Assembly (NCBI GenBank): GCA_044235645.1
Contig: JBIIHQ010000007.1
Location: 34,628-98,627 of the forward strand
DNA: 64,000 nt
Direction: 5' to 3'
From: Bdellovibrionota bacterium
GTDB taxonomy: Bacteria > Bdellovibrionota_C > UBA2361 > OMIW01
A program made the position numbers and the translations under genes. The notes beneath the pieces are model-generated. The model ran no database searches and was not told the DNA's origin. It was given only the letters and a program-made list of their open reading frames with translations. This document shows positions 121 to 49,473 of this stretch, one piece after another. How positions within the stretch are numbered: the first letter of the stretch is position 1; each line of letters opens with the position of its first letter.

Positions 121-1404
121 ATGGTCGATGATATCCGCGCGCCATTTCCGACTCACTCCGCTCCTGGGACCTCGCGCGACGGGGCTGCCCGAGACAACGG
201 GCGGGGAACCGAACTTACGACGACGGTGCTCGCCCAAGATGGCAAACTCGGGATAGGGATACACTCAAAATTTCTTCCCCTTACCATCTCCCTTGATGCG
301 CGGGCTGGGGATATCGTTCGAGTCCGGATCGAACCTCCCTCGATTGATCACGGGAATAAAGAAACAATAGTGCGGGTCCTGCGGATACTCTCACACCCGA
401 ATCGGGGCCCAGGGCTCGCGACAACAACTCCCCGTACCCTCAGAGATCTTTTTTCCGCTGCCTCGATAAAGCCACTCCAGGAGCTCCTTTTGGCACTCCG
501 AGAGGTGCTCGAACGGAAAGGGCCGATTGATAAGAAAATTTCCCTAAAAACGGGAAACAACGTGGCCGAACCCACCCCTGGACCCGATCCTCGCCTCCCG
601 GGCCTCGCGCCACTCTCCCACTCTCGCACTCACCATATTCCCGCTGCTTACGGAGTTGGAGGCCCCCGACCCGAGGTCGCCCGAATGGTGGCCTCCCGTG
701 AACCCGCGCTCCCCATCGCCACACCGATCCCGCCAACTCCCCCTCAATCTGCCCCTCCAGAAACCTCACTCCGGTCACTCGTCGAAGCAGCGGTTCGCAT
801 GATAGCCGAGCGGGCCGCTGACGGTGGAAAGCAATCTGCCCCCACTCCCCGAACCAAATCATCGGACGACAGCTCCGCCGCGGACGAGGCCACCCGCCGA
901 TTTCAACGACTCGTCACCGAGGCTGGCCCAATCCTCGACCAGTACAACCGCCTCTTTGAATCGCTCAACCAACCGTCATACCTCCTCACCACCCTCGGCA
1001 CCCAAACCCCGATTGTCCCGCTCGAGCTCTCGTTGCTTCGCACCCCCCATCGTCCCGACCGCTCGGGCGAGGGGGTTGAGCACCCGATGGATCGAAGCGA
1101 GATTGCGGGCGATGGAGGCACGGCACATCATCGTGTGTACACCCGCCTCCGAATGACGATCCACTTGCCCACCCTCGGCCCCCTCGGGGTCGATGTGGCA
1201 TATCGGGAGACAGAGGTGCTCCTCAAGATGATCTCCCCTTCGCCACAGGTAGCGGCTTATATGGCCGGGGAGCTACCAGGCCTCGTGGAGCAGTTGAAGG
1301 GGGCGGGATATGGCGGGGTATCGTGGTTTACGGAGGTTGGGGAGGTTGGTGGGGTTATGCCGGAGTGGTTTCGGGAGTTGGTTGAGGAAGGGGTGGTGGC
1401 TTAG
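121..1404 (+). CDS. FliK/SctP-like length-control (ruler) protein with C-terminal Flg_hook/T3S4-like domain
   Basis: 427-aa ORF with a Pro/Ser/Thr-rich low-complexity centre. The C-terminus RLRMTIHLPTLGPLGVDVAYRETEVLLKMISPSPQVAAYMAGELPGLVEQLKGAGY fits the L.P..LG.V.V ... L...L..L...G pattern of FliK/SctP C-terminal domains. By-eye call only. Confidence 0.4.
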   Translation: MVDDIRAPFPTHSAPGTSRDGAARDNGRGTELTTTVLAQDGKLGIGIHSKFLPLTISLDARAGDIVRVRIEPPSIDHGNKETIVRVLRILSHPNRGPGLATTTPRTLRDLFSAASIKPLQELLLALREVLERKGPIDKKISLKTGNNVAEPTPGPDPRLPGLAPLSHSRTHHIPAAYGVGGPRPEVARMVASREPALPIATPIPPTPPQSAPPETSLRSLVEAAVRMIAERAADGGKQSAPTPRTKSSDDSSAADEATRRFQRLVTEAGPILDQYNRLFESLNQPSYLLTTLGTQTPIVPLELSLLRTPHRPDRSGEGVEHPMDRSEIAGDGGTAHHRVYTRLRMTIHLPTLGPLGVDVAYRETEVLLKMISPSPQVAAYMAGELPGLVEQLKGAGYGGVSWFTEVGEVGGVMPEWFRELVEEGVVA

Positions 1405-9034: not shown

Positions 9035-9057
9035 TTCATTAAACCTAACACTCCCAC

Positions 9058-9140: not shown

Positions 9141-9163
9141 CGAATAACTCGCCCTTGCTCTGT

Positions 9164-9636: not shown

Positions 9637-9852
9637 TCACTGCGGGCTCACAGTCCTGCAATTGACCCCCCTGTGCTCACAATCCACCGAGTAGGGTACT
9701 CGGCCATTCGAGTAACCCCCCGCCCGCGAAACGATCACGGGTGAGGTCGAGGGACGCCTCGCTCCGGGATTGTTTCCTGGACCCCCTGCCATTGCAGGAG
9801 AAGTGGTGAAGAGCCCAAGGGCAAAGGCCAGTGCGATGCTGATGCAGTTCAC
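9637..9852 (-). CDS. Small secreted Cys-containing protein (signal peptide, C-terminal Cys-x6-Cys)
   Basis: 71 aa with a GTG start. The signal peptide is MNCISIALAFALGLFTTSPAMA|GG. The mature part is Gly/Pro/Arg/Ser-rich and ends ...VDCEHRGVNCRTVSPQ. It has its own promoter and terminator. Confidence 0.45.
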   Translation of the reverse strand: MNCISIALAFALGLFTTSPAMAGGPGNNPGARRPSTSPVIVSRAGGYSNGRVPYSVDCEHRGVNCRTVSPQ

Positions 9853-9875
9853 GTTGGAATGTCAGAAGACCCCTC

Positions 9876-9905
9876 ATCATAGAACGCCGTACCACTTGAA
9901 GTCAA
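9876..9905 (-). promoter_or_regulatory. Sigma70-like promoter of ORF 9637..9852
   Basis: The minus strand reads TTGACT (9900-9905), an 18-nt spacer, then TATGAT (9876-9881). The -10 context GGCGTTCTATGATGAGGGG resembles that of the 8774..9034 unit (GGTGTTCTAATATGTGGGAG). Confidence 0.5.
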
Positions 9906-9944
9906 GATTTCTGACGAAAAAAGTGCCCTCACCCGTTTTTCTGC

Positions 9945-9959
9945 CGAGAAGCCTTCTCG
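9945..9959. promoter_or_regulatory. Perfect 7-1-7 palindrome CGAGAAG-C-CTTCTCG upstream of promoter 9876-9905
   Basis: Read directly. It lies about 39 bp upstream of the -35 element of the 9637..9852 unit. Confidence 0.3.
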
Positions 9960-10387
9960 CCGAAACCGTCGCCGGAGGGTTCGCCTCAGTGTGGAGGAGA
10001 AGCCCCCTCAGAGGAATCAGTGCGCAAAAAGGGGGGATCGGGACGGTTCATGACGAACCGAAGCGCAGGGTGCCAGGCGGGGATTTTTCTTGGTTGAGGC
10101 TATATCGCTGATCTGCAGCGGCTTTTACCCGGCGGCAACGCGAGGGCGGTTCGAACTCTTTCGATATTCTTTTTTTTGGCTGTAAATTCGGCTCAGCAAA
10201 ACAGCCATGCAGCTGCTGGCACCTTGGACCTCCGACCCGACCCGAGCCCCCCTACCGCCTCCTCTCAGGAGCAGGATTCATACGCCGTATTCACATAGCC
10301 CAAATATCATTTGACGGAGGGGGGGGTGAAGGCTTACCCTCTTCTTATGAGTATTCGACACCCCCCGCCCCCCTCCGAAGGGGCGCC

Positions 10388-21969: not shown

Positions 21970-23025
21970 ATGTTCAAGCTGCGACCGCAGGGCCATCGCG
22001 CACCTCAACGACCCGTTTCTCGCGGAGGGAGCGCTCCGTCTCATACCTCAACCAATCGAACGGGTGAAGCATCTATAATCCCCGCACGACCCTCCTCCCC
22101 TCCCCCACACCGCTCACCAGGACATATCTCGACGAACGGGCATCAACATACACGAGCAACCGGGCGCGGACTCGCCGAATTCGATCGAGCCCTCAGTAAG
22201 TTCGAGAATCTTCCTGATATCTCGTTTCTTCCGGATATGCACATCATCGTCCGACTTGACGCCCACAGGCTCGGGATCCACTGGGCATCATTTCCCGATG
22301 CTGACTATCCCCTCGGAGCCTCCTTTTCTCAGGGACTTCGTGCGGCCGCTGTTGCTCTGTTCACGAGTGGTATCCGCATCCTCTTTATCTTTGCCCATGG
22401 CGATGAACTATCAGTAGCGATTGATCCACAAGAACTGATCAACGGAAGAAAAAAAGCGCGTCTCGTGTCGGGACTTGCGAGTGCTGCATCGGTAGGACTG
22501 TGCACCGCGCTCGGTCGCGGAGCTCTTTTCCACGCAAAAGTGAGTGAGTTGCCCTCGAGCGACCATGTTATCGATTACCTCCTCTGGCAGCGACTCGTTG
22601 CCCGGCGAAATACTATCGCTCGTTTCCTCTCTCTTAAACTAGCCGAGGCAGCACTACCCAAAAGCGAAGTAGACCGAATCCTCACAAAGGCGGGGGAGGA
22701 GGAACGGCTCGCAACCCTGAGTCACTTTGGGCTCGATTACGCATCGCTAACACCCTACCAGCATCGGGGTGCCCTTCTCTGGTGGGCCTCTTCGCCCATC
22801 CCGTCCTCGATACGTATAGAGGGCCAGCCTTTCGGTATCGCCGAGTGTGTTGACCTCCCCGAGGAGGATGAGTTTGTCATGGGGATTAGGGCCATTCTTC
22901 GGGGGGTGAGTATAAGCACAGAAGGGGAGGCTCCTGTTTTTCAGCGAGAGCTCCCACGGGAAAATCTGACCAACGACGATTTTGCGAGTGATGGCAACGA
23001 TGAGTCAGAGGACGACACCGACTGA
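21970..23025 (+). CDS. Thg1-like protein (tRNA-His guanylyltransferase/3'-5' polymerase family) with low-complexity N-terminus and acidic tail
   Basis: The core FDRALSKFENLPDISFLPDMHIIVRLDAHRL ... ILFIFAHGDELSVAI matches the Thg1 pattern (F E ... vvRlDG..F ... SDE.S). The first ~70 aa are Pro/Ser/Arg-rich and the true start is uncertain. The C-terminus NDDFASDGNDESEDDTD is acidic. Confidence 0.5.
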   Translation: MFKLRPQGHRAPQRPVSRGGSAPSHTSTNRTGEASIIPARPSSPPPHRSPGHISTNGHQHTRATGRGLAEFDRALSKFENLPDISFLPDMHIIVRLDAHRLGIHWASFPDADYPLGASFSQGLRAAAVALFTSGIRILFIFAHGDELSVAIDPQELINGRKKARLVSGLASAASVGLCTALGRGALFHAKVSELPSSDHVIDYLLWQRLVARRNTIARFLSLKLAEAALPKSEVDRILTKAGEEERLATLSHFGLDYASLTPYQHRGALLWWASSPIPSSIRIEGQPFGIAECVDLPEEDEFVMGIRAILRGVSISTEGEAPVFQRELPRENLTNDDFASDGNDESEDDTD

Positions 23026-31408: not shown

Positions 31409-32506
31409 ATGGCGACTCTTCGACGGGGACCCCACGCATTCTCTCTCTCTGTCGCTGCCACCGCGGATTCAACGCACCGGCGATCATCACAACACCGCGT
31501 GCGCTCATCCCGTCCCCTCGCAACCCCCCCCCGCGGCTATCTTCATTCGTATCAATGCACGCGACTGCAAAGTCGTAACAGAGAGCAATCCCCCACCCCC
31601 TCCGAGGGGATGCAACCCCCCATCAAGACAACCACGCTCATTAATGAGCTCGTCTTTCCATTGACCCTCCTTCGTCAGGGTGGACCTGGGTATCTCATAC
31701 ATCACATCACTCTTTTTTCATTTCTTCTGATTGCGATCTCATTTATGGAGCAGGCCTCTGCCGCTGTCGTTGCACGAAGCGGAATGCTCTGGGATCTTCC
31801 GCTTGCTATCGCCCCTTTCTTTCCGCTCGGCATCGCTCTGATACTTCGGGTCCTTCTCTTTCCGGTAGCCGTAGGGATATGCGCTCTTCCCATCCGTATC
31901 CTTTTCCTCTCGGGTTCGCTCGACCTCGTTGAGTTGTGCGAGCAGACCCCCCGGGCGATCCGTCGTTCATGTTCGACTAGTTGGCTTATCTTCCTCAAAT
32001 TGGTTCGACGAGCGCTTTCGATGGGCTTCATCGTCGGGTTATTTCTCCTTATCGGGTCCGGACATCGGGGGACAAAAGGCGTGCTTCTCGCGACGACCCT
32101 CGGCTCGGTGGGCTACCTCATTGTGCGGATTCCACTAATCTGCGCTCCCCTTCTCAGTATCGTCGGCGATTATGGACGCCGATATGCTGTCATTCACGCC
32201 GCAACTATTTTGCACCATTCGGCCCGCAAGATTAGATGGTACGTCATCGGATGCATTACCGGCTGGTTCCTCACCCATTTAGCACTCCGAACGATCCTGG
32301 GAGATGCGTCAGCCCATCATTGGAGCATGCTGTTTAACTTCAATGCGATCGGATGGGTCTGGTTTGGGGTTACCTGCATAACCTCCCTCGTTCTCCATGA
32401 TGCCTATCTGCACGAACGCGCAATGAGCGGTATGCAGGCCGAATTAAAGAAGCACTCCTTCGAACGGGATACCTCGCCCATCGGCGTCCTTCCACCCTTT
32501 GGCTGA
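31409..32506 (+). CDS. Hypothetical polytopic membrane protein
   Basis: Several predicted TM helices start from about residue 95. The N-terminal ~67 aa are low complexity, so the start may be ATG 31610. No family was recognised. Confidence 0.4.
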   Translation: MATLRRGPHAFSLSVAATADSTHRRSSQHRVRSSRPLATPPRGYLHSYQCTRLQSRNREQSPTPSEGMQPPIKTTTLINELVFPLTLLRQGGPGYLIHHITLFSFLLIAISFMEQASAAVVARSGMLWDLPLAIAPFFPLGIALILRVLLFPVAVGICALPIRILFLSGSLDLVELCEQTPRAIRRSCSTSWLIFLKLVRRALSMGFIVGLFLLIGSGHRGTKGVLLATTLGSVGYLIVRIPLICAPLLSIVGDYGRRYAVIHAATILHHSARKIRWYVIGCITGWFLTHLALRTILGDASAHHWSMLFNFNAIGWVWFGVTCITSLVLHDAYLHERAMSGMQAELKKHSFERDTSPIGVLPPFG

Positions 32507-32623: not shown

Positions 32624-34378
32624 ATGTGCTGCTCGCTCTTCCCCACGAACTTTTGGCGGTCCCTCATGAAGAACACGTCGACTCGTCTGGTCTCCATGGG
32701 AGACAGGTCATTAAGGTCAAAAGGCTCGTGCATGCACCTCCCTCCTGCCGCTCTCTTCGTAGGGTGGGTTACGACGGCAGTTGTCGGTTGCGTATTTCTC
32801 CTCCCCTCTCTCGCCCTTGGTACCCCCCGCTCCGCGCGAATAATATCCATCAGAACTGAATATGGTGGCTCTGGAACTCTCTCAGCGACCACTATTGCCA
32901 AAGCGAATGTAATACTCCTTCGATTGTGGCTCCCAGGAAACGGGGTAACAACCATAAAACTAAATCGACCAACCTCATTAAGCTCCTCGAACCTGTGGCG
33001 AGGCTACGCCCAATCACCCTCACGAGACGCCGGAAGACAGAGCAGCGCCAGTAGACGGTGGGCAGCAGCATCACTTACGGAGCAAGCCGGGCTTTTGCCG
33101 TCGGCAGAGTATGTCACCCCTTCCCCCGATCTTTCGGTAATTGGAAAGAAGCTAACGCTCAACTTTGCGACCTCCGGGGTACGGGGAGGGACCCGTTTTT
33201 TTTCACTCAGCGGGGGTGAGGGGGCCAAGAAGTTGAAAGTGGTAAGAGCTCCGCATTTTGCTCTCGCCAACAAGGGATGCCCGATGAAGGGGCACCTTGA
33301 GGAACATGCGCGAGAAATATTCGGTGAATTATCAACTTCGTCGCGATCGAGGCCGTCAAGTGCCCTTTCCGCCCGAGCCGTCAATCTGAGCAAGAAACTG
33401 ACCTTAAGAACCGTCGCAGATTGGAGGTGGTCGGCTTTTTACGGTGCGAATGCAAATACCAGAATTCAAACAATCGCAAATGCAGCGTCAGCAATCTACG
33501 GCAATGACCTCGCCATGAGCCTCTCAATCGATTCACAGTTCGTCGACAACTCCTCCCTGTCGTATCCAGCCTCGATAACAAATCCCGAGAGTTTTCTCGA
33601 ACTCTTTAGCAATCAGAATCTCAAGGGTTCTGCCAATGCAGGAGTTCTTTTCACCGATCGAACCTTTGATGATTCGGTTATCGGGATAGCCTACCTTGGG
33701 GTTATTTGTCGTATTCCTTCGGCATCTTATGCGGCAATACGACGATTTCAAGATGCCCTCGATCCGATCATTCTCGCTCATGAGATCGGTCATACACTCT
33801 CCGCAGTCCATGTTTCCGACGGAATCATGACGACATCACTGAATCCCTCAAATCCTCCATCATCCTTTTCTGCATCATCAATCAACGAGATAGCTTCTCA
33901 TGTCCAGACCTATGGTTCATGCATGGCCTCTGTCTCGCCGAATCCGAATCCGACTCCCACGGCGACACCGAACTCGGGTGGCTCGGGGTCAGCTAGTAGT
34001 ACAACCAGAATCCGCTTACTCATAGCCGGTCCCCGGATAGTTCTGCGACCCTCTGTGTCAGACGAATATGGGTCGGGACTCGGCGAGCAATGTACCTTTT
34101 CCATCAAGGCAGGCTTCTCGAGAAGGGGCCTTTTTTCTAAGGGTACAACCCTCTTTTCTTCCACCTTATCGGCCTTGCCATCAGGACTGGTAGCCCGGTT
34201 ATCGCGTCGTTCCGCGACCTCAGGCCCTCTCTACCTGCGGGGTTACATCCAATGTCCGGGAGCGCCCCTCGATACGACCGCGACCATCTGGTTTGACCCG
34301 TCTTCTCTCAACTTTTCGAAAAAGACGAGTCAATCAAATTTCCTTAAGGATCTGAAGCTTCGCCTGAAGAGAGAGTAG
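32624..34378 (+). CDS. Secreted metzincin-like zinc metalloprotease (HExxHxxSxxH)
   Basis: 584 aa with an N-terminal signal/anchor (FVGWVTTAVVGCVFLLPSLALG). The catalytic motif ILAHEIGHTLSAVHVSDGIM follows GIAYLGVICR. A Pro/Thr/Asn linker and an unassigned C-terminal domain follow. Confidence 0.6.
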   Translation: MCCSLFPTNFWRSLMKNTSTRLVSMGDRSLRSKGSCMHLPPAALFVGWVTTAVVGCVFLLPSLALGTPRSARIISIRTEYGGSGTLSATTIAKANVILLRLWLPGNGVTTIKLNRPTSLSSSNLWRGYAQSPSRDAGRQSSASRRWAAASLTEQAGLLPSAEYVTPSPDLSVIGKKLTLNFATSGVRGGTRFFSLSGGEGAKKLKVVRAPHFALANKGCPMKGHLEEHAREIFGELSTSSRSRPSSALSARAVNLSKKLTLRTVADWRWSAFYGANANTRIQTIANAASAIYGNDLAMSLSIDSQFVDNSSLSYPASITNPESFLELFSNQNLKGSANAGVLFTDRTFDDSVIGIAYLGVICRIPSASYAAIRRFQDALDPIILAHEIGHTLSAVHVSDGIMTTSLNPSNPPSSFSASSINEIASHVQTYGSCMASVSPNPNPTPTATPNSGGSGSASSTTRIRLLIAGPRIVLRPSVSDEYGSGLGEQCTFSIKAGFSRRGLFSKGTTLFSSTLSALPSGLVARLSRRSATSGPLYLRGYIQCPGAPLDTTATIWFDPSSLNFSKKTSQSNFLKDLKLRLKRE

Positions 34379-34388: not shown

Positions 34389-34691
34389 CTATTCCGTGAT
34401 GCCCAGCACCCGAAACACGGCAGCCACCGCCCGAAAAAGCTCAGTGGGAATATAATCGCCCAAACCACACTCCAAAAGTCCATCAACAATAGCGCTCTGC
34501 TCAATGACCGGCACCCCGTGGCTCCGTGCGATAGTGACGATCTCATCGGCGCTGAAATAGGCCCCCAGCGCCTCAATCCGTGGAGCATGATCTTCCGCGG
34601 CATCATACCCAATAGCCACGGCACCACGGTAGGAGGGGCCTTTTGAACCACCCGCAAATCCCCCCAATAAACTTTGGTCTGTGGATACCAC
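34389..34691 (-). CDS. sctU: SctU/FlhB C-terminal (normally autocleaved) domain as a separate protein
   Basis: GTG 34691 lies 5 nt after AAGGAGG (34697-34703). The product GPSYRGAVAIGYDAAEDHAPRIEALGAYFSADEIVTIARSHGVPVIEQSAIVDGLLECGLGDYIPTELFRAVAAVFRVL matches the FlhB/YscU C-terminal domain, with GPSY in place of NPTH. Confidence 0.8.
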   Translation of the reverse strand: MVSTDQSLLGGFAGGSKGPSYRGAVAIGYDAAEDHAPRIEALGAYFSADEIVTIARSHGVPVIEQSAIVDGLLECGLGDYIPTELFRAVAAVFRVLGITE

Positions 34692-34705
34692 TTTTACCTC
34701 CTTTA
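34689..34705 (-). promoter_or_regulatory. Stop / Shine-Dalgarno / restart junction of the split sctU (flhB) gene
   Basis: The minus strand reads GTG AGG TAA AGGAGG TAAAA GTG. TAA (34703-34705) ends the N-fragment, AAGGAGG (34697-34703) overlaps it, and GTG (34689-34691) starts the C-fragment in another frame. Confidence 0.7.
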
Positions 34706-35470
34706 CCTCACACAATTGGCGCGAGCCACGATTACTACCGACGATCGCTTCACCGCCCTTACCAAATCTTCTCGAAGCATCGCACGGTGAAGCCCACGCT
34801 GCTGTCCCCGCACCAATGGGTCACCACACTCATCTCTTTGCTCCTGCCGCACCTCTTGCCCGGTCATCATTGTCTGCCATCTAAAACGCCACCACCCAGT
34901 GCTGAAGGAAGCTGCTCCCACCAATGCCAAAAATAATCCGATGCCCACCGACGAGCGGAATAAAAGTGCGTGGACTCCTGTGTCGGACAGAGAGAAAAAT
35001 CCCCTCTGGATAAAATCTCCCGCTATCCACCAAGAAACCAGAAAGCCTAGAGACAATGCGCTGAGCGAACCTATCAGCTGGAGAGGTAAACGACGCAAAC
35101 GACCTATCCACGCGGTCGGCGTCAGTCGAGACATACTCGGGGCAACACGATCGAGTTGCAGGCGGGGACGTTTTATAGCAACCATGAGGAGACATGATAC
35201 TACCGAGCAACCTGCGAAGATCATTCCTATCCCCCCCCAGTCCTCGGTCAATATATTCCGAAGACAGGAATCCAATGCCTGCGCACCTCCACCCCAACAT
35301 TGAGTGGCGATGGAGACGACAGGAGAGCATATCCACCGATGGCTCGACCAACTGAGCACTCCAACCAGCACTACCGAAACGCTCCCAAGGAATTGAGCAG
35401 ACTCGACGGTCGTTCCGTTTTCACGCAGTTTCTTTATATGTCTAGCAGAGCCGGGGAATCTCTTCTCCAT
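34703..35470 (-). CDS. sctU: SctU/FlhB N-terminal transmembrane + linker part (export-apparatus switch protein)
   Basis: 255 aa. The N-terminus MEKRFPGSARHIKKLRENGTTVESAQF matches the EKTE.PT.kkl...r..G pattern. Four TM segments follow. The linker MTGQEVRQEQRDECGDPLVRGQQRGLHRAM fits MS.qE.k.E.Ke.EGdP..K.r.R. The ORF ends ...SSVVIVARANCVR, where NPTH would follow. Confidence 0.8.
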   Translation of the reverse strand: MEKRFPGSARHIKKLRENGTTVESAQFLGSVSVVLVGVLSWSSHRWICSPVVSIATQCWGGGAQALDSCLRNILTEDWGGIGMIFAGCSVVSCLLMVAIKRPRLQLDRVAPSMSRLTPTAWIGRLRRLPLQLIGSLSALSLGFLVSWWIAGDFIQRGFFSLSDTGVHALLFRSSVGIGLFLALVGAASFSTGWWRFRWQTMMTGQEVRQEQRDECGDPLVRGQQRGLHRAMLREDLVRAVKRSSVVIVARANCVR

Positions 35471-35581
35471 CTATTCATCCATCCAGATGTCCCGTTTAAG
35501 CTCGGCTACCTACATTTATCCAAGGTAGTCCCGGCAGTTTACTACTCCCAACCCTTCCCCTCGATTCCCTCGACCTCTCCC

Positions 35582-36259
35582 CTAGAAAAGATAATAGAGA
35601 AGAGAAAAGCTAAGAGCACATTTCATCAGGTGAACTCCTATCGTGATTTCCTGACATAGCGAGAATCGTGATACCAGTCCGCAGATTATCTCGATAGCTA
35701 TGCACCCGAGAAGAAAAGGCATGCTCGTTTTGGCGATCCAAAGACCCGCGTCATACCATGCAGCAGTAACCCTCTCGACCAAGGCGATACGAACGAGCCG
35801 ACTCCCCGGTGGAAGCGTGTTTATCGACTCAGCGAAGGCGACAATGATCCGAGGTAGGGTGCCGAGGAGTACCAAGGTGCCCCAGTTTAATTCGCGAAAA
35901 ACCGCCGACCATATACCCTTCGAGCCATTCGGAGCCATCGGACTGACGATTGAAGCAAAGCTCAGATTCGTCGATAGGTCGACGATCCCGCCCACCAATT
36001 CGGTAGACCAGACCGGAATAAGAAAAGGAATGACGAGCAGGATGCCCACGACACACTCCCTCAGCATCGCCGATATGGGCGAATGGACCCAAACCGACCC
36101 GTTTATGCCGATTGATGCCGGGAGCAGAGATGCGGAATCCCAGACGCAGAGAGCGCTCACAATCCCGAGAACAAAAACGGTGCGCTTTGATAGCCCAGGA
36201 ACCAGAAGCCAGATGGCCCAGCCACGGACAGAGATGGATACAAATGCCACTAGATCCAT
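35582..36259 (-). CDS. sctT: SctT/FliR-family export-apparatus protein
   Basis: 225 aa with SD GAGGAG 5 nt upstream. RGWAIWLLVPGLSKRTV fits the R....i...P.ls.R.v pattern. ECVVGILLVIPFLIPVWSTELVGGIVDLSTNLSFASIVSP parallels FliR ...G...Gl.mGLSFA..vDP. Confidence 0.8.
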   Translation of the reverse strand: MDLVAFVSISVRGWAIWLLVPGLSKRTVFVLGIVSALCVWDSASLLPASIGINGSVWVHSPISAMLRECVVGILLVIPFLIPVWSTELVGGIVDLSTNLSFASIVSPMAPNGSKGIWSAVFRELNWGTLVLLGTLPRIIVAFAESINTLPPGSRLVRIALVERVTAAWYDAGLWIAKTSMPFLLGCIAIEIICGLVSRFSLCQEITIGVHLMKCALSFSLLYYLF

Positions 36260-36292
36260 GACACTCCTCTTTTCCGATTACTCGTGACGGGA

Positions 36293-36571
36293 CTATCCCT
36301 GCCGAGCCATGACAGATGCAGACCGAAAGCAAAGGACAGTAAACTGCGTAATACCTCGCCATGCGACGGGCCCACAATAAACAAGACCGATGCCATAAAC
36401 AGCCATACGAATGAGAAATGCTGACATCTGATCCTGAAGCTGTGTAGCTGCCTGAAGAATGGAAACCGACATCGATACAATTGCCGCGAGCAAAAGGGGT
36501 ATCGAGACAATGACAAGGATCCTGCAAATATCATTACCGAAAGATTCAAGAATCATCACGACGTCGTCCAT
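36293..36571 (-). CDS. sctS: SctS/FliQ-family export-apparatus protein
   Basis: ORF 36293..36616 trimmed to ATG 36571, 2 nt after the sctR stop, giving 92 aa. IPLLLAAIVSMSVSILQAATQLQDQMSAFLIRM matches the FliQ/YscS signature (..QA.TQiqEqtl.F.pK). Confidence 0.85.
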   Translation of the reverse strand: MDDVVMILESFGNDICRILVIVSIPLLLAAIVSMSVSILQAATQLQDQMSAFLIRMAVYGIGLVYCGPVAWRGITQFTVLCFRSASVMARQG

Positions 36572-36573
36572 TA

Positions 36574-37290
36574 CTACAGGTAGGAATAAAAGATAGTCCG
36601 ACTGATCAGAATCCATCCGTCACATGCATAAAAGAGCAGCAACTTAATCGGAAGGGCGATACTGATAGGGCTTACCATGGTTAATCCCAATGCTGTGAGG
36701 GTATTTGCAATAATCAGGTCAACCAGGAGAAACGGTATAAGGATCATGACCCCGATAATGATCGCACCCCGGAGTTCTGATACAACAAAAGCAGCAAACA
36801 AGACTCGCAGAGGAATGGGACTCCCTAACGGCGGCTCCTGGACCGCTGATTCCTTTCGGTCGCTTGTGTCTGGCGATGAGCTGTTCGACGTTGAAGACTG
36901 CTCTGTGTGCCTGGTCATGGCAATCTCTCTCATGGCAGAGAGCTCAGCGGTACCAACCTGCCTTGCAAGGAATGCTCGCCACGGCTCGATTGCCGGCTGC
37001 AATGCAGCCAAATCCCGCAGTTGTGGTGCTTTATCAAGGGCGAGAGGTGGCACATTATCTAAATTTTTCGCTGATTGAACGAGTATCGGATGCATGACTA
37101 TCGCAACAAGGGATGCGGATAACGCAAACTCTATCGCCATCGTTCCACCCGAATTAAATCCTAGTCCGCCCTTTAGGAGATTGATGACAACACTCACCTT
37201 GAGATAACAGGTGCAGCATGTTACCAGCAGGGGTAACGCCGCGAGAAACATCATAATACCCAGCAGCCACTGGGGGTGGGTCGTTGTCAC
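36574..37290 (-). CDS. sctR: SctR/FliP-family export-apparatus protein
   Basis: 238 aa. The GTG start overlaps the upstream stop (GTGA) and AAGGAG lies 7 nt upstream. PLRVLFAAFVVSELRGAIIIGVMILIPFLLVDLIIANTLTALGLTMVSPISIALPIKLLLFYACDGW closely parallels the FliP/YscR C-terminal half. The protein starts directly with TM1, with no cleavable signal peptide. Confidence 0.9.
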   Translation of the reverse strand: MTTTHPQWLLGIMMFLAALPLLVTCCTCYLKVSVVINLLKGGLGFNSGGTMAIEFALSASLVAIVMHPILVQSAKNLDNVPPLALDKAPQLRDLAALQPAIEPWRAFLARQVGTAELSAMREIAMTRHTEQSSTSNSSSPDTSDRKESAVQEPPLGSPIPLRVLFAAFVVSELRGAIIIGVMILIPFLLVDLIIANTLTALGLTMVSPISIALPIKLLLFYACDGWILISRTIFYSYL

Positions 37291-38237
37291 GTGTTGCTCC
37301 TTTGCTCTTCACTATCACCCACGACATCAATAGCAACAACCCGAACCTTCTCGCCGATAAGGGCAGCTCGAATCGCTTCCTGGACATCCTGTGATACCGA
37401 TGCCGGGGAACATCTCGGTGCGTTTACCCGAACCGTTACTCCCCGATGCGCTGAATGCTGGATCTCAACGGATCCTGTCGCTTCCGGCAGCGGAGCTGAG
37501 ACGATGATATCCCCCAGATCAAGCACCACCGTGGCGATGGGATTCTCTTTTGGAGGAGTCATGCGTCCCGGTTGCTCACGTATTTTTTTTTGCCCCTCAT
37601 CACCCATCGACTCAGCACCTCGGTGCTCTGAGAGGACTCCCCCCTCTCGCCGAATACAAGCCAATGAGCCGGAGCCATCTTGCCCCATGAGTGACACGGA
37701 TCCAGAAAGAGCAGGGCATTGATCCTTTTGAATTTCACTAAGATCGGATTGCTTGCATCCAATACCTGTTGCTGTCTTGTCTTCCTGACTCTGCCAATCG
37801 GCTAGCTCAACTCCCTCGCGAAGTCGTAAAAAAAAGAGCTGTGCTCTCACCTCCTGATCAACGCCTCGCACCCGAGCTCGCTCTGCTACAGCAAGAAGGA
37901 GCTGCAGCCTCTTTTCCCAACCAGCGATGCGATGTTGCCGGTCGGCCCCGCTCGCAAGCCCCTCATGAGCGGCAACCACCCCATCTCGAATCCGGGCTTG
38001 AAGAGGTTTGCTCATCTCCGTCACAGAAGACGATCCGCCAGCATCACTCCATCTGCACGTCAGAGGGGCAGATAGTTGTTCTGCAGTCGCAAGAATCTCC
38101 CGAAATTCTGCCCGTGCCTGATCGATTCTCCGAGATCGAACCCGAACCTGAGCAATCAGCCTCCCAATGCGCAGATACCGAGCGTGCTGAATTCGTTGAA
38201 CAGTCTTACCTCGAGTCGTTATGTGGCCGATTGCCAT
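37287..38237 (-). CDS. Coiled-coil protein with FliK/SctP (T3S4)-like C-terminus; possible SctO/FliJ-SctP/FliK composite
   Basis: ORF 37287..38312 trimmed to ATG 38237, 7 nt after the upstream stop, with GGGAGG upstream. The N-terminal half is Arg/Ala/Leu/Glu-rich helical. The C-terminus VSAPLPEATGSVEIQHSAHRGVTVRVNAPRCSPASVSQDVQEAIRAALIGEKVRVVAIDVV fits L.PE..G.V.I...V.V...L..AL...v.v. By-eye call only. Confidence 0.35.
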   Translation of the reverse strand: MAIGHITTRGKTVQRIQHARYLRIGRLIAQVRVRSRRIDQARAEFREILATAEQLSAPLTCRWSDAGGSSSVTEMSKPLQARIRDGVVAAHEGLASGADRQHRIAGWEKRLQLLLAVAERARVRGVDQEVRAQLFFLRLREGVELADWQSQEDKTATGIGCKQSDLSEIQKDQCPALSGSVSLMGQDGSGSLACIRREGGVLSEHRGAESMGDEGQKKIREQPGRMTPPKENPIATVVLDLGDIIVSAPLPEATGSVEIQHSAHRGVTVRVNAPRCSPASVSQDVQEAIRAALIGEKVRVVAIDVVGDSEEQRSNT

Positions 38238-38244
38238 AACCTGA

Positions 38245-38553
38245 CTAGCCTCCCTGCTGAAGTCGTCGAACGACCCCCGCGACCGCCTCTCCGGTCTTAG
38301 CGCAAACCTCAACTCTCATGGCATATTCCGAGAATGCCCGCTGAATCGTCAGAAGCTCCCCGATATTCATCGATACTTCCGGTCTCATTTTGTCAGCCGG
38401 GTTTGGTCCTATCTTGAAGAGCTCCCTGATATGACGAAACTCGGCAAAACGAGAAATACCGCCATCAGAATGATTTCTTGATACCCCTTTCAAGGGGAAT
38501 GCTGAGTGTATTAACTTCGGATGCACCTCCATCCGAGATATCTCACCTGTCAT
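38245..38553 (-). CDS. Small SctI/FliE-like (inner-rod/needle-family-like) protein
   Basis: ORF 38245..38616 trimmed to ATG 38553, with GGAGGA (38558-38563) 4 nt upstream, giving 102 aa. The C-terminus ELLTIQRAFSEYAMRVEVCAKTGEAVAGVVRRLQQGG has the amphipathic pattern and ...AKT......V..L..GG ending that I associate with T3SS rod (SctI) / FliE-type proteins. Weak by-eye call. Confidence 0.35.
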   Translation of the reverse strand: MTGEISRMEVHPKLIHSAFPLKGVSRNHSDGGISRFAEFRHIRELFKIGPNPADKMRPEVSMNIGELLTIQRAFSEYAMRVEVCAKTGEAVAGVVRRLQQGG

Positions 38554-38735
38554 AACGTCCTCCAACTGCGACTGATTCCCCAACTCTGCTACCCGATTAT
38601 TTTTTGCTCTCCGCAAGGCGTGCGAGGACCACCCTTGTACGGCGGCTCTCCATTATCGACAAAGAAAGGAGGAAGTTGCGGATCATTTGCATCCCTCGGC
38701 ATTTTTTTGAGCCGAGGGCTTTTGCCGAGAAAGCC

Positions 38736-47093: not shown

Positions 47094-48620
47094 ATGGGAT
47101 TATTCTCTTTCGCTAACTCCTCACCTAGATTTGAGAAGGAGCCGTCCGTGGCCACTATCTCTTGCCCACCATACGACATTAACGAGGAAATTCTCCCCGA
47201 CCAACTTTTCTCAGCCACTGCTCCGTGCGGAGCCCTCGTAGAAATTCGGGTTGTTAAATTGGCTGCTGGGGGCTCCTCTCATTCAGGTGTCATCATTCAG
47301 CTACAGAGTTGGATCGACTCAATGCGCGAGACATCTCATCCGCACATCTCCCGGCTCATTGATGTCAAACAAGATGAACAAAACATCTTTCTCGTAACAG
47401 AGTCTTGCGAAGGGATCACCCTGCGCGAGTTGATCCAAAATCAACAAGAACTCGTGCATCCCCTCGTTGTTTATTACATGCAACAGGTCGCTTCGGGCTT
47501 GGATTATCTTCACAGTGTCGGTGTCCATCATCGTGATTTTAGCCTGCGGCGGGTCCTTATTGACCCGGGGGGCACTGCAAAAATCGTCGACGTCGGGCTT
47601 CCAGGAATTCTCCCTGAGGTCGTTACGCATGGGGGGCTTGAGGGTACCGAGCGTGGCTACATCTCTCCTGAAGAGCTTCAAGGCCAGGGGCCGAGCGCTC
47701 AGGCCGATCTCTTCCGATTCGCTGTCGCCTGCTTTGAATTAATCACAGGAGTCCTTCCCTTCACAGGAGACACGCCAACAACACTTCAAGCATCAATCCT
47801 CAGCAACTCGCGAACCCTCCCCGCAGTGCGGTCACGTGTCATGCCGGCCCATCTAAAAAAGGCCTTTGAACGCGCCCTCTCTCCCCAACCCGGGAAGCGA
47901 CCAAACTCCGCAGCTCAGTTAGTCAAGGCACTTACCTACACCGAGACATTTGCCACAGGTCGGGGCCTTGCCGACCTGATGTCTCACAACGCTCCCCCCG
48001 AAGCGCGAAAAAAGGCCAAGGCTCCCCAGTGGCTCGTCGCTGGTGGTCTTGGACTGCTGGTGGGTGTAACGCTCATCGCCGGGACGATTGGTCGCTCTTC
48101 CCCATCAATGATAGAGTCGAGTGCCGACAACCCGGCGCTCCCAGAAGTGGCGCTAGAAACCTCTCCCTTTTCGCCGGTAAGAGATCGTCAAACACCAGCA
48201 AAAAAAATCCTCAAACTTCTTCCAATAGCGCAAAAAGGCACCGGAGGTGAGCAGTCTCTCGTACCAGTCCTTCAATACTTGTTCTCAGAAACAGCTTCCA
48301 CACCAACCACTTCGGAGGAACAACAGCTTCTCAAGGCTCTTCTGGCTCACGACAACCCCAACATCCGACGCACCGTTGTGCAGATTATCGAGAGACGTGG
48401 GATAAAAGAGCTTACGGATCAGTTATTTCCCCTCCTCGATGATGATGATCCAGGCATCCGAAGCGTCGTCGTTCGAGCCCTTCGGTCAACTTTTGCACCT
48501 GTTTCAGTTAAACTTCTCGCTCTCAAGGCTGCCTCGGAATCGGTTCCTGCAATTCACGCCGATATTCTCGCGCTCGCCGAAGGCTACGCAGCGGAATTGG
48601 AGATGCAGAAGGGACAATGA
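47094..48620 (+). CDS. Ser/Thr protein-kinase-like protein with degenerate catalytic motifs, TM segment and HEAT-like repeats
   Basis: The kinase fold is recognisable (HPHISRLIDV, LDYLHSVGVHHRDFSLRRVLID, KIVDVGL, YISPEE, ADLFRFAV). A TM helix (WLVAGGLGLLVGVTLIAG) follows. The C-terminal repeats include DNPNIRRTVVQ and DDDPGIRSVVVRAL. Confidence 0.65.
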   Translation: MGLFSFANSSPRFEKEPSVATISCPPYDINEEILPDQLFSATAPCGALVEIRVVKLAAGGSSHSGVIIQLQSWIDSMRETSHPHISRLIDVKQDEQNIFLVTESCEGITLRELIQNQQELVHPLVVYYMQQVASGLDYLHSVGVHHRDFSLRRVLIDPGGTAKIVDVGLPGILPEVVTHGGLEGTERGYISPEELQGQGPSAQADLFRFAVACFELITGVLPFTGDTPTTLQASILSNSRTLPAVRSRVMPAHLKKAFERALSPQPGKRPNSAAQLVKALTYTETFATGRGLADLMSHNAPPEARKKAKAPQWLVAGGLGLLVGVTLIAGTIGRSSPSMIESSADNPALPEVALETSPFSPVRDRQTPAKKILKLLPIAQKGTGGEQSLVPVLQYLFSETASTPTTSEEQQLLKALLAHDNPNIRRTVVQIIERRGIKELTDQLFPLLDDDDPGIRSVVVRALRSTFAPVSVKLLALKAASESVPAIHADILALAEGYAAELEMQKGQ

Positions 48621-48630
48621 CAGTAGACCT

Positions 48631-49473
48631 ATGACCCGTCCACCTCGTCAAAGGAGATTTTCCACCGCGAGCCGCCGGGAGACTTCTCTCTCCAATCAAA
48701 GCGAAACGCTCCACCCTATCCGCTCGCTATTTTTTACCCTTGGCATCCAGATTGTTGCGAGAACTCTCCTGGGCAGTCTTGATAACCACACACTCGTGAC
48801 GGTCACTCATTTCGCTTTTGCACTGAGTCTCTCTCGACTCCTGTCGCTCTCTCGTCCATGGCAGCTGTGCAATATCCTTATTCCTGTAGGATTAAATCTC
48901 CAAACTGGCTCCCTTCTTCCTTTCATCGGATTCCTTATCAGCCTTATGATCTTCTGGCCGACCCTTCGCGAGCCGATACCTTTCTATCCTTCCCGACGAG
49001 CTGTCTTTCAACACCTTGCCACCATACTAAGTGCGGAGCGACCCCGAGATTTTGCGGATCTTGGCTCAGGAACCGGTTCCGTGCTCTTTGCTCTTGCACG
49101 GAGATTTCCTGAGATATCTTTTGTTGGATACGAGATCGGATATTTGCCACTCCTTCTCTCCCGGATTCGTTCGTTGTGGTACCCTCATGTGACTATTATT
49201 AACCGCTCCATCTGGGACATACATCTCGGGACGCATTCGTGTGTTTATGCATTCTTATCTCCTACCCCCATGGCTCGCCTTGAAGAAAAGCTTGCCGAGG
49301 AGCTTCCGAAAGGTTGTATATTCTTAAGTAACTCCTTTCCACTTCCCCTCACAGAGGCACGCACATTCATCGAAATTGGGGGACAATCGCTTTTCGTCTA
49401 TCGTTCTGATGACATTGGAGTGAAAAGCCAAAAGAGCTCCTGGTATGGGTTGTCATCTGCTTCGCGGATGTAG
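48631..49473 (+). CDS. Class I SAM-dependent methyltransferase with N-terminal membrane segments
   Basis: ORF 48439..49473 trimmed to ATG 48631, 11 nt after the kinase stop. The SAM motif I is FADLGSGTGSVLFALA, followed by VGYEI. Confidence 0.65.
   Translation: MTRPPRQRRFSTASRRETSLSNQSETLHPIRSLFFTLGIQIVARTLLGSLDNHTLVTVTHFAFALSLSRLLSLSRPWQLCNILIPVGLNLQTGSLLPFIGFLISLMIFWPTLREPIPFYPSRRAVFQHLATILSAERPRDFADLGSGTGSVLFALARRFPEISFVGYEIGYLPLLLSRIRSLWYPHVTIINRSIWDIHLGTHSCVYAFLSPTPMARLEEKLAEELPKGCIFLSNSFPLPLTEARTFIEIGGQSLFVYRSDDIGVKSQKSSWYGLSSASRM

What the first reader, a model, noticed from the sequence alone, without database searches (positions are those of the whole stretch)
34389..38553. Compact type III secretion/flagellar-type export-gate operon with no other T3SS component in 64 kb
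Seen: seven co-directional, translationally coupled genes lie on the minus strand. They are a SctI/FliE-like gene (38245-38553), a coiled-coil/FliK-like gene (37287-38237, starting 7 nt after the upstream stop), SctR/FliP (GTGA start/stop overlap at 37287-37290), SctS/FliQ (2-nt gap), SctT/FliR, SctU-N and SctU-C. The R, S, T and U assignments rest on long by-eye alignments to FliP/FliQ/FliR/FlhB signatures and on canonical sizes (238, 92, 225 and 255+100 aa). No SctV/FlhA, SctN/FliI ATPase, SctJ/FliF or SctD ring, secretin, SctQ/FliN/FliM, FliO, hook, flagellin or translocon gene is recognisable anywhere in the window. The flanks are unrelated: a cation/H+ antiporter and ftsK upstream, and a convergent metalloprotease 10 nt downstream. 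SctR starts directly with TM1 and has no cleavable signal peptide, which is injectisome-like, while SctS carries the FliQ-like QAATQ. The gene order (O/P-like, R, S, T, U) mirrors the ysc/spa order but lacks Q. Inference: this is either a dispersed or minimal T3SS, or a repurposed export gate.
Basis: partly seen in the sequence, partly recalled or inferred. Interest (0 to 1): 0.72.

Follow-up and report, generated by a model that had tools for sequence, protein, structure and literature searches.

The report
Secretion-gate operon with split switch gene
An uncultured Bdellovibrionota-type bacterium carries a real seven-gene operon for the membrane core of an injectisome-type (type III) secretion machine, in which the switch protein SctU, normally one protein that cuts itself in two, is encoded as two separate genes broken exactly at that cut site.

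Summary
Seven co-directional, tightly packed minus-strand genes lie at 34389-38553. Pfam places four gene products above its curated cut-offs: SctR/FliP, SctS, SctT and SctU, the last as an N gene (profile positions 2-256) and a C gene (262-334). The two upstream genes have no direct Pfam hit. Their positional orthologues link them, below threshold, to SctI (inner rod) and to the SctP/FliK T3S4 ruler domain.

The main feature is the split SctU. The N gene ends right after the strand that precedes the NPTH autocleavage loop. A TAA stop, an AGGAGG ribosome site and a GTG start follow, and the C gene begins just before the next strand. NPTH is absent. The same operon and split occur in about 25 loci, mostly from Bdellovibrionota MAGs: 0/21 N parts carry NPxH, against 38/39 unsplit relatives. 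The genes score and branch with non-flagellar systems and are under purifying selection.

No SctV, ATPase, ring, secretin or needle gene lies within about 78 kb. One extra FliK-like gene sits at 121-1404. Whether the rest is encoded elsewhere could not be tested. Verdict: a new variant of a known system, moderately interesting.

The parts
38554..38735 (-). Intergenic region upstream of the operon (182 nt), with a hairpin just after the antiporter stop. Likely promoter region.
   Evidence: Sequence printed. The sigma-70 scan found no consensus promoter on this strand, so the promoter is inferred only from the gap.
38245..38553 (-). sctI-like gene (102 aa): putative inner-rod/adaptor protein.
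   Evidence: The window protein has no Pfam hit. A positional orthologue of about 100 aa is present in all related loci, with an invariant C-terminal helix LxxLQ..Y.LKVE..SKVAES..AS.RKLQQ. Clade-B members hit PF17001 T3SS_basalb_I below threshold (21.3 bits, E 3.8e-4; 17.4 bits), aligned to the profile's C-terminus. The family HMM hits an Ichthyocystis protein that itself matches PF17001. hhalign gives E 0.0019, probability 14%. dN/dS is 0.24.
37287..38237 (-). sctP/FliK-like gene (316 aa): helical N-terminal half, disordered middle and a C-terminal domain of about 70 aa resembling the T3S4 substrate-switch domain.
   Evidence: The window protein has no Pfam hit. A positional orthologue of about 285-350 aa sits directly upstream of sctR in all related loci. 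The L024 member hits PF02120 Flg_hook at 20.3 bits, E 4.8e-4. The family HMM hits Myxococcota T3SS-cluster proteins that match Flg_hook near the cut-off. hhalign against L089 gives E 1.8e-4, probability 48%. The AF2 model is poor (pLDDT 38) but shows helices 8-161 and a beta-beta-alpha-beta C-terminus. dN/dS is 0.37.
36574..37290 (-). sctR (238 aa), export-gate subunit. GTG start inside a GTGA overlap with the upstream stop. No N-terminal signal-peptide extension.
   Evidence: Pfam FliP 141.6 bits, matching residues 13-232. NCBIfam EscR/YscR/HrcR 133.6 bits against fliP 116.9 bits, both below their cut-offs. Alignment A1. The identical protein is found on 10 independent contigs.
36293..36571 (-). 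sctS (92 aa; the mechanical ORF extends to 36616).
   Evidence: Pfam Bac_export_3 48.3 bits. SctS 39.4 bits against FliQ 34 bits. Relatives are 85-93 aa. Start and 2-nt gap shown.
35582..36259 (-). sctT (225 aa).
   Evidence: Pfam Bac_export_1 44.7 bits, profile positions 2-192 of 230. dN/dS is 0.22.
34703..35470 (-). sctU-N (255 aa): transmembrane domain, linker and the beta-strand that precedes the autocleavage loop. Ends ...SSVVIVARANCVR*, with no NPTH.
   Evidence: Pfam Bac_export_2 89.9 bits, profile positions 2-256 of 335. C-termini compared with unsplit SctU. 0/21 related N parts have NPxH.
34692..34702 (-). Engineered-looking intercistronic junction: TAA stop, AGGAGG Shine-Dalgarno site, 5-nt spacer, GTG start.
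   Evidence: Sequence. Equivalent junctions (SD plus start, or a GTGA overlap) occur in four other clade-A loci.
34389..34691 (-). sctU-C (100 aa): the stand-alone cytoplasmic C-terminal switch domain, starting just before the strand that normally follows NPTH (..PSYRGAVAIGYD..).
   Evidence: Pfam Bac_export_2 51.7 bits, profile positions 262-334. NCBIfam flhB_rel 65.5 bits and SctU 47.2 bits. Foldseek top 7 hits of the N+C concatenate model are YscU/EscU C-domains (probability 0.90-1.00, from a low-confidence model). dN/dS is 0.16.
121..1404 (+). Separate 427-aa gene with a FliK/SctP-type T3S4 (Flg_hook) domain. A possible second ruler/switch protein. Its link to the operon is unproven.
   Evidence: PF02120 30.2 bits (cut-off 29.8), residues 341-398. 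It stands alone next to an NfeD protease gene. The SctP-like family HMM does not detect it. hhalign aligns the two C-domains only weakly (E 0.068).

Best explanation
This is the export-gate module of a non-flagellar type III secretion system (injectisome lineage) in an uncultured Bdellovibrionota-type bacterium, transcribed as one operon: sctI-like, sctP-like, sctR, sctS, sctT, sctU-N, sctU-C.

By homology with solved systems, SctR, SctS and SctT form the helical pore in the inner membrane. SctU wraps around it and presents a cytoplasmic domain that selects early versus late substrates. SctI builds the first rod layer on top of SctR/SctT. The SctP-like protein uses its C-terminal T3S4-like domain to flip the SctU switch.

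The special feature is how SctU is made. In known systems SctU is one chain that cuts itself at N|PTH, and the two pieces stay bound. Here the pieces are made from two genes split at exactly that loop. SctU-N supplies the transmembrane helices, the linker and strand beta-1. SctU-C supplies the rest of the fold. The NPTH motif has been lost. The machine is therefore permanently 'pre-cleaved'.

Shown: gene identities, the position of the split, its conservation, the non-flagellar affinity and purifying selection.

Inferred: the assembly stoichiometry, the non-covalent N/C complex, the roles of the SctI-like and SctP-like proteins, and that the remaining parts (SctV, the ATPase complex, rings) are encoded elsewhere in the genome.
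For: - **Family assignments.** Pfam hits for R, S, T and both halves of U are far above the curated cut-offs.
- **Position of the split.** U-N covers profile positions 2-256 and U-C covers 262-334. U-N ends ...VVIVA plus 6 aa, and U-C starts before ..GAVAIGYD. These correspond to ..VIVTNPTHxAVALRY.. in unsplit SctU.
- **A real cistron junction.** TAA, AGGAGG, GTG, with analogous junctions in the other clade-A loci.
- **Conservation.** The same seven-gene order appears in about 25 loci. 0/21 U-N carry NPxH and 0/17 U-C carry PTH, against 38/39 in other lineages. Stand-alone U-C occurs in 17 clade loci, against 0 of 48 other loci. In clade B another gene (about 1040 aa) separates the halves, so the fission is old.
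- **Size of the family.** 83 of the best 150 clusters (50% identity) matching U-N are N-only forms of 245-295 aa.
- **Non-flagellar affinity.** Shown by the NCBIfam scores and the NJ tree.
- **SctI and T3S4 links.**
- **Purifying selection.** dN/dS is 0.16-0.37 for all seven genes against a relative with 84% identical SctR.
- **Not an assembly artefact.** The identical SctR gene is on 10 independent contigs from several samples, and the 255+100-aa split was called again in L001.
- **Mechanistic plausibility.** Salmonella needle complexes built with pre-cleaved SpaS work like wild type, so cleavage itself is not the signal (PMC4620466).
- **The lineage has the other parts.** A related Bdellovibrionales MAG encodes SctV, SctD-like, SctJ and SctQ next to R-S-T-U.
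Against: - No SctV, SctN/L/O, SctJ, SctD, SctQ, SctC or SctF gene lies in the 64-kb window, in the 10 kb to its right or the roughly 4 kb to its left. None lies within 10 kb of the operon in any of the ~25 related loci. A complete machine is therefore assumed, not shown.
- The window's own proteins fall below all NCBIfam equivalog cut-offs.
- The SctI-like and SctP-like assignments rest on sub-threshold and transitive matches. PDB profile searches were negative.
- Both AlphaFold models are low-confidence.
- The tree is a single neighbour-joining tree without bootstrap.
- The taxon rests on submitters' labels of the nearest MAGs.
Confidence: 0.7

Rival explanations
1. A reduced, 'needle-less' or periplasm-limited T3SS-like machine, as in the Myxococcales systems. 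The lineage keeps only a subset of components: gate, switch, rod and ruler, with perhaps SctV and an ATPase elsewhere. It lacks secretin, needle and translocon, and is used for something other than injecting eukaryotic cells, for example contact-dependent attack on prey bacteria.
For: The nearest unsplit relatives include Myxococcota T3SS clusters. Myxococcales systems that lack secretin and SctF are conserved and judged functional (PMC3459982), and they take part in prey killing (PMC12075869 abstract; PMC10469934). The fuller Bdellovibrionales cluster L051 shows SctV, SctD-like, SctJ and SctQ, but no secretin or needle family in the 10 proteins scanned. Bdellovibrionota are typically predators (general knowledge).
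Against: Secretin and needle genes could lie anywhere outside the ~78 kb examined. An SctI-like rod protein and an SctP-like ruler suggest that some polymer is built and measured. No functional data exist.
Confidence: 0.3
2. A self-sufficient or repurposed export gate: SctRSTU with SctI and SctP works without SctV, ATPase or rings, or borrows them from the flagellar apparatus.
For: About 25 loci from two deeply diverged clades all keep the same compact module with no other T3SS gene within 10 kb. All seven genes are under purifying selection. A separate FliK-like gene hints that a flagellar system may coexist.
Against: No T3SS is known to export without SctV/FlhA (established knowledge of the family). 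Dispersed T3SS genes are well documented, for example in Chlamydiales, which have at least four loci (PMC3459982). A related MAG does have SctV, J, Q and D beside R-S-T-U. Absence from a 10-kb flank says little about the rest of the genome.
Confidence: 0.1
3. Scattered flagellar genes (fliP, fliQ, fliR, flhB) of an otherwise ordinary flagellar regulon.
For: Flagellar and Sct models score close together for the window's very divergent proteins (SctT scores marginally higher with fliR). Many Bdellovibrionota are flagellated (general knowledge). A FliK-like gene is in the window.
Against: In clade B all five products score higher with Sct than with flagellar models, and SctR passes the EscR/YscR/HrcR cut-off. 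The clade groups with non-flagellar SctR in the tree. SctR has no signal-peptide extension. The rod-like protein matches SctI and not FliE. No FliO, FliN/M, FlgB/C or FliE gene is adjacent in any locus.
Confidence: 0.04
4. The split SctU is a pseudogene or an assembly/frameshift artefact, and the operon is decaying.
For: The two halves are in different frames. The window's proteins are unusually divergent from all curated models.
Against: The same split was called in an independent assembly (L001), and the identical SctR gene is on 10 contigs from several samples. The split is present in 21 loci across clades with about 35% identity. It carries a canonical SD and start codon. About 25 extra residues and another whole gene (clade B) lie between the halves, so a single frameshift cannot rejoin them. 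dN/dS is 0.25 for U-N and 0.16 for U-C.
Confidence: 0.02

Closest known systems
Injectisome export apparatus SctR-SctS-SctT-SctU (e.g. Salmonella SpaP/Q/R/S, Yersinia YscR/S/T/U)
   Same: The same four families in the same gene order. SctR lacks a signal peptide. An SctP-type gene lies upstream. Scores favour Sct over flagellar models.
   Different: SctU is two genes and NPTH is absent. No sctQ lies between sctP and sctR. An sctI-like gene heads the operon. No sctV/N/O/L/J/D/C/F is nearby. Sequences are very divergent: the window proteins fall below all equivalog cut-offs.
Autocleaved / experimentally pre-cleaved SctU-FlhB (SpaS, EscU, YscU, FlhB)
   Same: The end state is two polypeptides broken between strands beta-1 and beta-2 of the cytoplasmic domain. 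Pre-cleaved SpaS is fully functional (PMC4620466).
   Different: Here the break is genetic and permanent, and the catalytic NPTH loop is gone. The C piece carries its own leader of 5-25 aa. In clade B it is encoded 3-7 kb away, behind a sensor-kinase-like gene.
Stand-alone FlhB-C-like proteins (NCBIfam TIGR00789 flhB_rel)
   Same: A short protein (~85-100 aa) homologous to the FlhB/SctU C-terminal domain. TIGR00789 is the best NCBIfam match for the window's U-C (65.5 bits).
   Different: The score is below the family cut-off (117.35). From my own knowledge of that family's description, its members accompany a full-length FlhB. Here the partner is an N-only SctU that lacks the domain.
Myxococcales 'Myxo' NF-T3SS / Myxococcus needle-less T3SS*
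   Same: A deltaproteobacterial-type predator lineage. These are conserved, reduced non-flagellar T3SS loci long mistaken for relics. They include the secretion apparatus and an inner-rod protein (PMC3459982). Myxococcota sequences are among the nearest unsplit relatives.
   Different: The Myxo loci keep the ATPase and SctJ in the same locus and have a single-chain SctU with NPTH. The present module has neither ATPase nor SctJ nearby.
Scattered T3SS of Chlamydiales
   Same: T3SS core genes are spread over several loci, one of them holding sctR-S-T (PMC3459982).
   Different: Dispersal is only presumed here. As far as I know, chlamydial SctU (CdsU) is a single chain.
Other naturally split T3SS genes (HrcQA/HrcQB; RhcC1/RhcC2 secretin)
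   Same: They set a precedent for a T3SS component encoded as two ORFs that are both retained (PMC3574062).
   Different: They involve different components. No split SctU turned up in four full-text searches.

Membership tests
T3SS export gate SctR/FliP (PF00813) | Profile match above Pfam's gathering score over the full domain | tested here: met
   141.6 bits against 26.9; residues 13-232 match profile positions 2-190 of 191.
NF-T3SS SctR (NCBIfam EscR/YscR/HrcR NF009438; TIGR01102) | Score at or above the curated cut-off (179; 208.6) | tested here: not met
   The window protein scores 133.6 and 118.2 bits. Clade-B orthologues score 183.9 and 202.9 bits and pass NF009438.
SctS/FliQ (PF01313) and SctT/FliR (PF01311) | Profile matches above the gathering score | tested here: met
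   48.3 bits against 25, and 44.7 bits against 27.8. All NCBIfam equivalogs are below their cut-offs.
SctU/FlhB (PF01312) | Membrane domain plus cytoplasmic C-domain of the FlhB/YscU family | tested here: met
   Both parts are present, but on two polypeptides: positions 2-256 (89.9 bits) and 262-334 (51.7 bits).
SctU/FlhB (PF01312) | Conserved NPTH autocleavage motif in a single chain | tested here: not met
   The motif is absent from both halves in the window and in 21 U-N and 17 U-C relatives. It is present in 38/39 unsplit homologues.
Complete NF-T3SS (injectisome) | SctV, SctN, SctJ, SctD, SctQ, SctC (core genes in the sense of Abby & Rocha) in the same genome | not testable with these tools
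   None lies in the window or its flanks, or within 10 kb in relatives.
SctI inner rod (PF17001 T3SS_basalb_I) | Profile match above the gathering score (32.4) | tested here: inconclusive
   The window protein has no hit. Orthologues score 21.3 and 17.4 bits at the profile's C-terminus. There are transitive HMM and hhalign links. The PDB profile search was negative.
SctP/FliK T3S4 domain (PF02120 Flg_hook) | Profile match above the gathering score (29.8) | tested here: inconclusive
   The 316-aa window protein has no hit. Orthologues score 20.3 and 14.4 bits. The family HMM hits Myxococcota Flg_hook proteins, and hhalign gives E 1.8e-4. The separate gene at 121-1404 does pass (30.2 bits).
Flagellar T3SS (FliP/FliQ/FliR/FlhB equivalogs) | Flagellar equivalog scores above cut-off, a FliP signal peptide, and adjacent FliO/FliN/FliE | tested here: not met
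   All flagellar equivalogs are far below their cut-offs, and lower than the Sct models in clade B. There is no N-terminal extension. No flagellar-specific family was found in the window.
FlhB-like stand-alone protein (TIGR00789) | Score at or above 117.35 | tested here: not met
   65.5 bits for the window U-C; 51.6 and 61.8 bits for clade B.

The most novel reading that the evidence does not exclude
The gene fission turned the SctU switch domain into a separately supplied subunit. Substrate switching, or activation of the whole gate, would then be controlled by when and how much SctU-C is made. In clade B, SctU-C lies behind a conserved ~1040-aa GAF/PAS/HATPase_c sensor-like gene. In the extreme form of this reading, the SctI-SctP-RSTU module works as a stand-alone gate without a dedicated SctV, ATPase or ring set.
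Probability: 0.12. Interest if true: 0.85.

Novelty: new variant of a known kind. Interest (0 to 1): 0.6.

Why it matters
SctU/FlhB autocleavage at NPTH is one of the most conserved and most debated features of type III secretion. The debate is whether the cut is a signal or simply a way to obtain two flexible pieces.

Here a large natural lineage has replaced the self-cut with a gene split and lost the motif. At least 80 protein clusters at 50% identity among the best 150 matches are of this N-only form. This is an evolutionary experiment in favour of the 'two pieces are what matters' view. It also offers ready-made two-chain SctU proteins for structural and biochemical work.

The finding adds non-flagellar T3SS modules to the uncultured freshwater Bdellovibrionota, a predator phylum. 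There they may relate to the needle-less systems of Myxococcus that take part in killing prey. Annotation pipelines that expect a 350-aa SctU would miss or mislabel these genes.

Tried and rejected
- **Word-index homologue searches for the two upstream proteins.** They found only 2 and 4 close relatives. Orthologues had to be collected by position from fetched loci.
- **Profile searches against PDB sequences.** Searches with the SctI-like and SctP-like families found nothing meaningful.
- **AlphaFold2 of the 316-aa protein.** With a 3-sequence alignment it gave pLDDT 38, so no fold search was run on it.
- **Single-sequence model of the SctU-N + SctU-C concatenate.** It was also poor (pLDDT 47.8). 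Its Foldseek hits to YscU/EscU C-domains serve only as a weak consistency check.
- **Locating the rest of the machine.** Walking 10 kb beyond the right end and about 4 kb beyond the left end found housekeeping genes only. The look-up for the acetyl-CoA synthetase gene found nothing.
- **Window proteins of unknown function.** phmmer against all ORFs of the T3SS loci found no hidden T3SS parts. The window's Ser/Thr kinase-HEAT protein is not the orthologue of the kinase-HEAT gene inside the L051 T3SS cluster.
- **Link between the two T3S4-like genes.** The SctP-like family HMM does not detect the FliK-like protein at 121-1404.
- **Literature searches.** Searches for a split SctU/FlhB or for T3SS in Bdellovibrionota gave no description of this arrangement.
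- **Promoter and terminator scan.** It was uninformative.
- **The ORF-poor stretch 7255-10387.** It gave no Rfam, tandem-repeat or repeat signal.

Full report
**Observation.** The junctions are as described: a 7-nt gap, a GTGA start/stop overlap, a 2-nt gap, then 33, 111 and 11 nt. The convergent reprolysin-like metalloprotease ends 10 nt from the last stop codon. A CPA2-type antiporter and ftsK lie upstream on the same strand. The window has 52-60% G+C with no compositional break at the operon, and no tRNA or Rfam hit.

**The four gate families.** Pfam scores:

| Gene | Family | Bits | Cut-off |
|---|---|---|---|
| sctR | FliP | 141.6 | 26.9 |
| sctS | Bac_export_3 | 48.3 | 25 |
| sctT | Bac_export_1 | 44.7 | 27.8 |
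| sctU-N | Bac_export_2, positions 2-256 of 335 | 89.9 | 24.4 |
| sctU-C | Bac_export_2, positions 262-334 | 51.7 | 24.4 |

The R/S/T/U calls are therefore solid. All NCBIfam equivalogs, flagellar or non-flagellar, are far below their cut-offs, so the proteins are very divergent.

**Relatives and taxon.** SctR has a tight set of metagenomic relatives at 58-98% identity ('clade A'). A second set lies at 32-41% ('clade B'). Beyond that come generic FliP/SctR sequences at about 30%. A scan of one genome per GTDB species found clade A once, and clade B in about 15 MAGs. Nearly all are titled Bdellovibrionota or uncultured Bdellovibrionales; a few are labelled Dadabacteria, Pseudomonadota or Deltaproteobacteria. 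After these come Myxococcota, Pseudomonas and other non-flagellar T3SS loci. The organism is therefore most likely an uncultured Bdellovibrionota bacterium, on the strength of submitters' labels. It is a diderm with bamA, ompH, lpxA, lpxI and fabZ in the window.

**Conserved architecture.** Every clade-A and clade-B locus with enough sequence has the same order: a ~100-aa gene, a ~300-aa gene, R, S, T and an N-only U of 253-289 aa.
- In clade A the ~100-aa U-C gene follows at once, with a 4-nt overlap or a 10-12-nt gap that holds a Shine-Dalgarno site.
- In clade B a conserved ~1040-aa GAF/PAS/HATPase_c protein, and sometimes more genes, lies between U-N and U-C, which are 3-7 kb apart.

**The split SctU.** In unsplit homologues the sequence reads ...(A/S)xV(I/V)VTNPTHxAVAL(R/K)Y.... 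In the window, U-N ends ...SSVVIVARANCVR*, and U-C reads M..(24 aa)..PSYRGAVAIGYD.... The junction is gtg agg TAA AGGAGG taaaa GTG: a stop, a consensus ribosome-binding site and a start.

| Set | Motif count |
|---|---|
| U-N, clades A and B | NPxH in 0 of 21 |
| U-C, clades A and B | PTH in 0 of 17 |
| U proteins from other lineages | NPxH in 38 of 39 |

A U-C HMM finds the domain as a stand-alone ORF in 17 clade loci, and only inside long ORFs in 48 other loci. An exhaustive HMMER search of 1.84 billion cluster representatives with U-N returned 150 best hits. Of these, 83 are 245-295 aa and mostly end ...KV(I/V)VV plus a few residues; 3 of the 83 have NPxH. The other main group is 59 full-length proteins, 47 of which have NPxH. 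The fission is thus ancient, exact and widespread.

It is not an artefact:
- The 255+100-aa split was called again in an independent assembly (L001), and the identical SctR gene lies on 10 contigs from several samples.
- About 25 residues of new sequence, and in clade B a whole gene, lie between the halves.
- Against the relative L096 (SctR 84% identical), dN/dS is 0.25 for U-N and 0.16 for U-C. The range is 0.16-0.37 for all seven genes, 0.04-0.09 for lon, ftsK and the antiporter, and 0.18-0.24 for the neighbouring dsbD, protease and membrane genes.

**The two upstream genes.** Neither window protein matches any Pfam or NCBIfam model, and word-index searches found almost no homologues. Positional orthologues from the loci align well.
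- The ~100-aa family has an almost invariant C-terminal helix. Clade-B members hit PF17001 (SctI/YscI/PrgJ family) at 21.3 and 17.4 bits, aligned to the profile's end. The family HMM also picks up SctI-like ORFs in the Ichthyocystis and Anaeromyxobacteraceae T3SS clusters.
- The ~300-aa family has a helical N-terminal half and a conserved C-terminal domain of ~70 aa. One member hits PF02120 (FliK/SctP T3S4) at 20.3 bits. The family HMM hits Myxococcota T3SS-cluster proteins that match PF02120 at about the cut-off.

These links are below curated thresholds. PDB profile searches and the AlphaFold model did not help. I treat 'SctI-like' and 'SctP-like' as likely, not proven.

**Flagellar or not.** In clade B all five products score higher with Sct models than with flagellar models:

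| Product | Sct model (L024) | Flagellar model (L024) | Sct model (L031) | Flagellar model (L031) |
|---|---|---|---|---|
| R | 183.9 | 152.0 | 202.9 | 165.4 |
| S | 40.0 | 20.7 | 60.7 | 56.8 |
| T | 64.9 | 52.4 | 75.4 | 65.6 |
| U-N | 90.9 | 75.6 | 158.3 | 134.1 |

SctR passes the EscR/YscR/HrcR subfamily cut-off. The window shows the same trend for R, S and U. SctR begins directly with TM1. In a neighbour-joining tree of 70 SctR/FliP sequences, clades A and B form one group nested among non-flagellar SctR and away from the sequences named FliP; there are no support values. The 'scattered fli/flh genes' reading is rejected.

**Other components.** Pfam scans covered essentially all window ORFs of 150 aa or more and ten of the roughly 45 leftover small ORFs. 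They found only one further T3SS-related gene: the 427-aa Flg_hook-domain protein at 121-1404. It stands alone beside an NfeD protease gene and is not detectably related to the operon's SctP-like family. Ten kb beyond the right end hold no T3SS gene. The ~25 related loci show none within 10 kb either.

One other Bdellovibrionales MAG (L051) does show a fuller cluster: SctV, a kinase-HEAT protein, two FHA/YscD-like proteins, SctJ, SctQ, R, S, T and a 248-aa U that stops even before the C-domain. The phylum therefore does encode the other basal-body parts.

**Mechanism.** By homology, SctR, S and T form the helical gate with one SctU wrapped around it. SctI seeds the rod on top. The SctP-like ruler acts on the SctU C-domain. 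In this lineage the C-domain (beta-2 onward) is a separate subunit that must dock on strand beta-1 at the end of U-N. This reproduces the state that other systems reach by autocleavage. Experiments in Salmonella show that a pre-cleaved SpaS supports normal needle length and secretion hierarchy, and that cleavage itself is not the switch signal (PMC4620466). A genetically pre-cleaved SctU should therefore work. The rest of the machine is most likely encoded elsewhere, as in Chlamydiales (PMC3459982). It may be reduced as in Myxococcales, whose secretin-less and needle-less loci are conserved and considered functional.

**Novelty.** Split T3SS genes are known for SctQ and the secretin (PMC3574062), and stand-alone FlhB-C-like proteins exist (TIGR00789). 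Four full-text searches found no description of a split SctU or of this Bdellovibrionota module. I rate it a new variant of a known system.

**Limits.**
- The taxon rests on MAG labels.
- The tree has no support values.
- The SctI and SctP calls are sub-threshold.
- The structure models are poor.
- Whether the system is complete is unknown.

Noticed in passing
window 121-1404 (+): A 427-aa protein with a FliK/SctP-type Flg_hook (T3S4) domain at residues 341-398 (30.2 bits, cut-off 29.8). It is monocistronic beside an NfeD-type protease gene, 33 kb from the operon. It could be the flagellar FliK or a second ruler.
   Followed up: partly
window 7255-10387: A 3.1-kb stretch with no ORF longer than 156 aa on either strand, lying between a Band-7/SPFH gene and a 568-aa gene of unknown function. 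It has no Rfam match, no tandem repeats, no notable repeats and ordinary G+C content.
   Followed up: partly
L012 13031-16162, L014 8560-11691, L024 12554-15748, L031 12439-15603 and other clade-B loci: A conserved ~1030-1064-aa protein with GAF, PAS and HATPase_c domains always follows sctU-N directly and precedes sctU-C. It is a candidate regulator tied to the split switch.
   Followed up: partly
L051 28-12389: Another uncultured Bdellovibrionales MAG has a fuller non-flagellar cluster: SctV, Pkinase-HEAT, two FHA/YscD-like proteins, SctJ, SctQ, R, S, T. Its 248-aa SctU ends right after the MTxQE motif, so it lacks the whole C-domain, and no U-C lies within 10 kb.
   Followed up: partly
window 32624-34378 (+) and 31409-32506 (+): A convergent reprolysin-like (M12B-type) metalloprotease and a 365-aa membrane protein of unknown family are conserved immediately downstream of the operon in all clade-A loci. 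The upstream neighbours differ between loci. No functional link was tested.
   Followed up: partly
window 36574-37290 (SctR residues ~125-165): Clade-A SctR carries a Ser/Thr/Pro-rich insertion of 25-45 aa in the periplasmic domain. The insertion is absent from clade B and from canonical SctR.
   Followed up: no
window 47094-48620 (+) and 48439-49473 (+): A Ser/Thr protein kinase with C-terminal HEAT repeats overlaps a 344-aa ORF without a family by 180 nt. The L051 T3SS cluster also contains a kinase-HEAT protein, but the two are not detectably orthologous.
   Followed up: partly
window 21970-23025 (+): A Thg1-like (tRNA-His guanylyltransferase family) protein, which is an uncommon gene in bacteria. 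The Pfam match is marginal (30.8 bits, cut-off 29.2).
   Followed up: no
window 4353-7254 (+): Two tandem SPFH/Band-7 proteins of 463 and 472 aa. An NfeD-type protease gene lies just outside the left end of the window (seen in L007).
   Followed up: no
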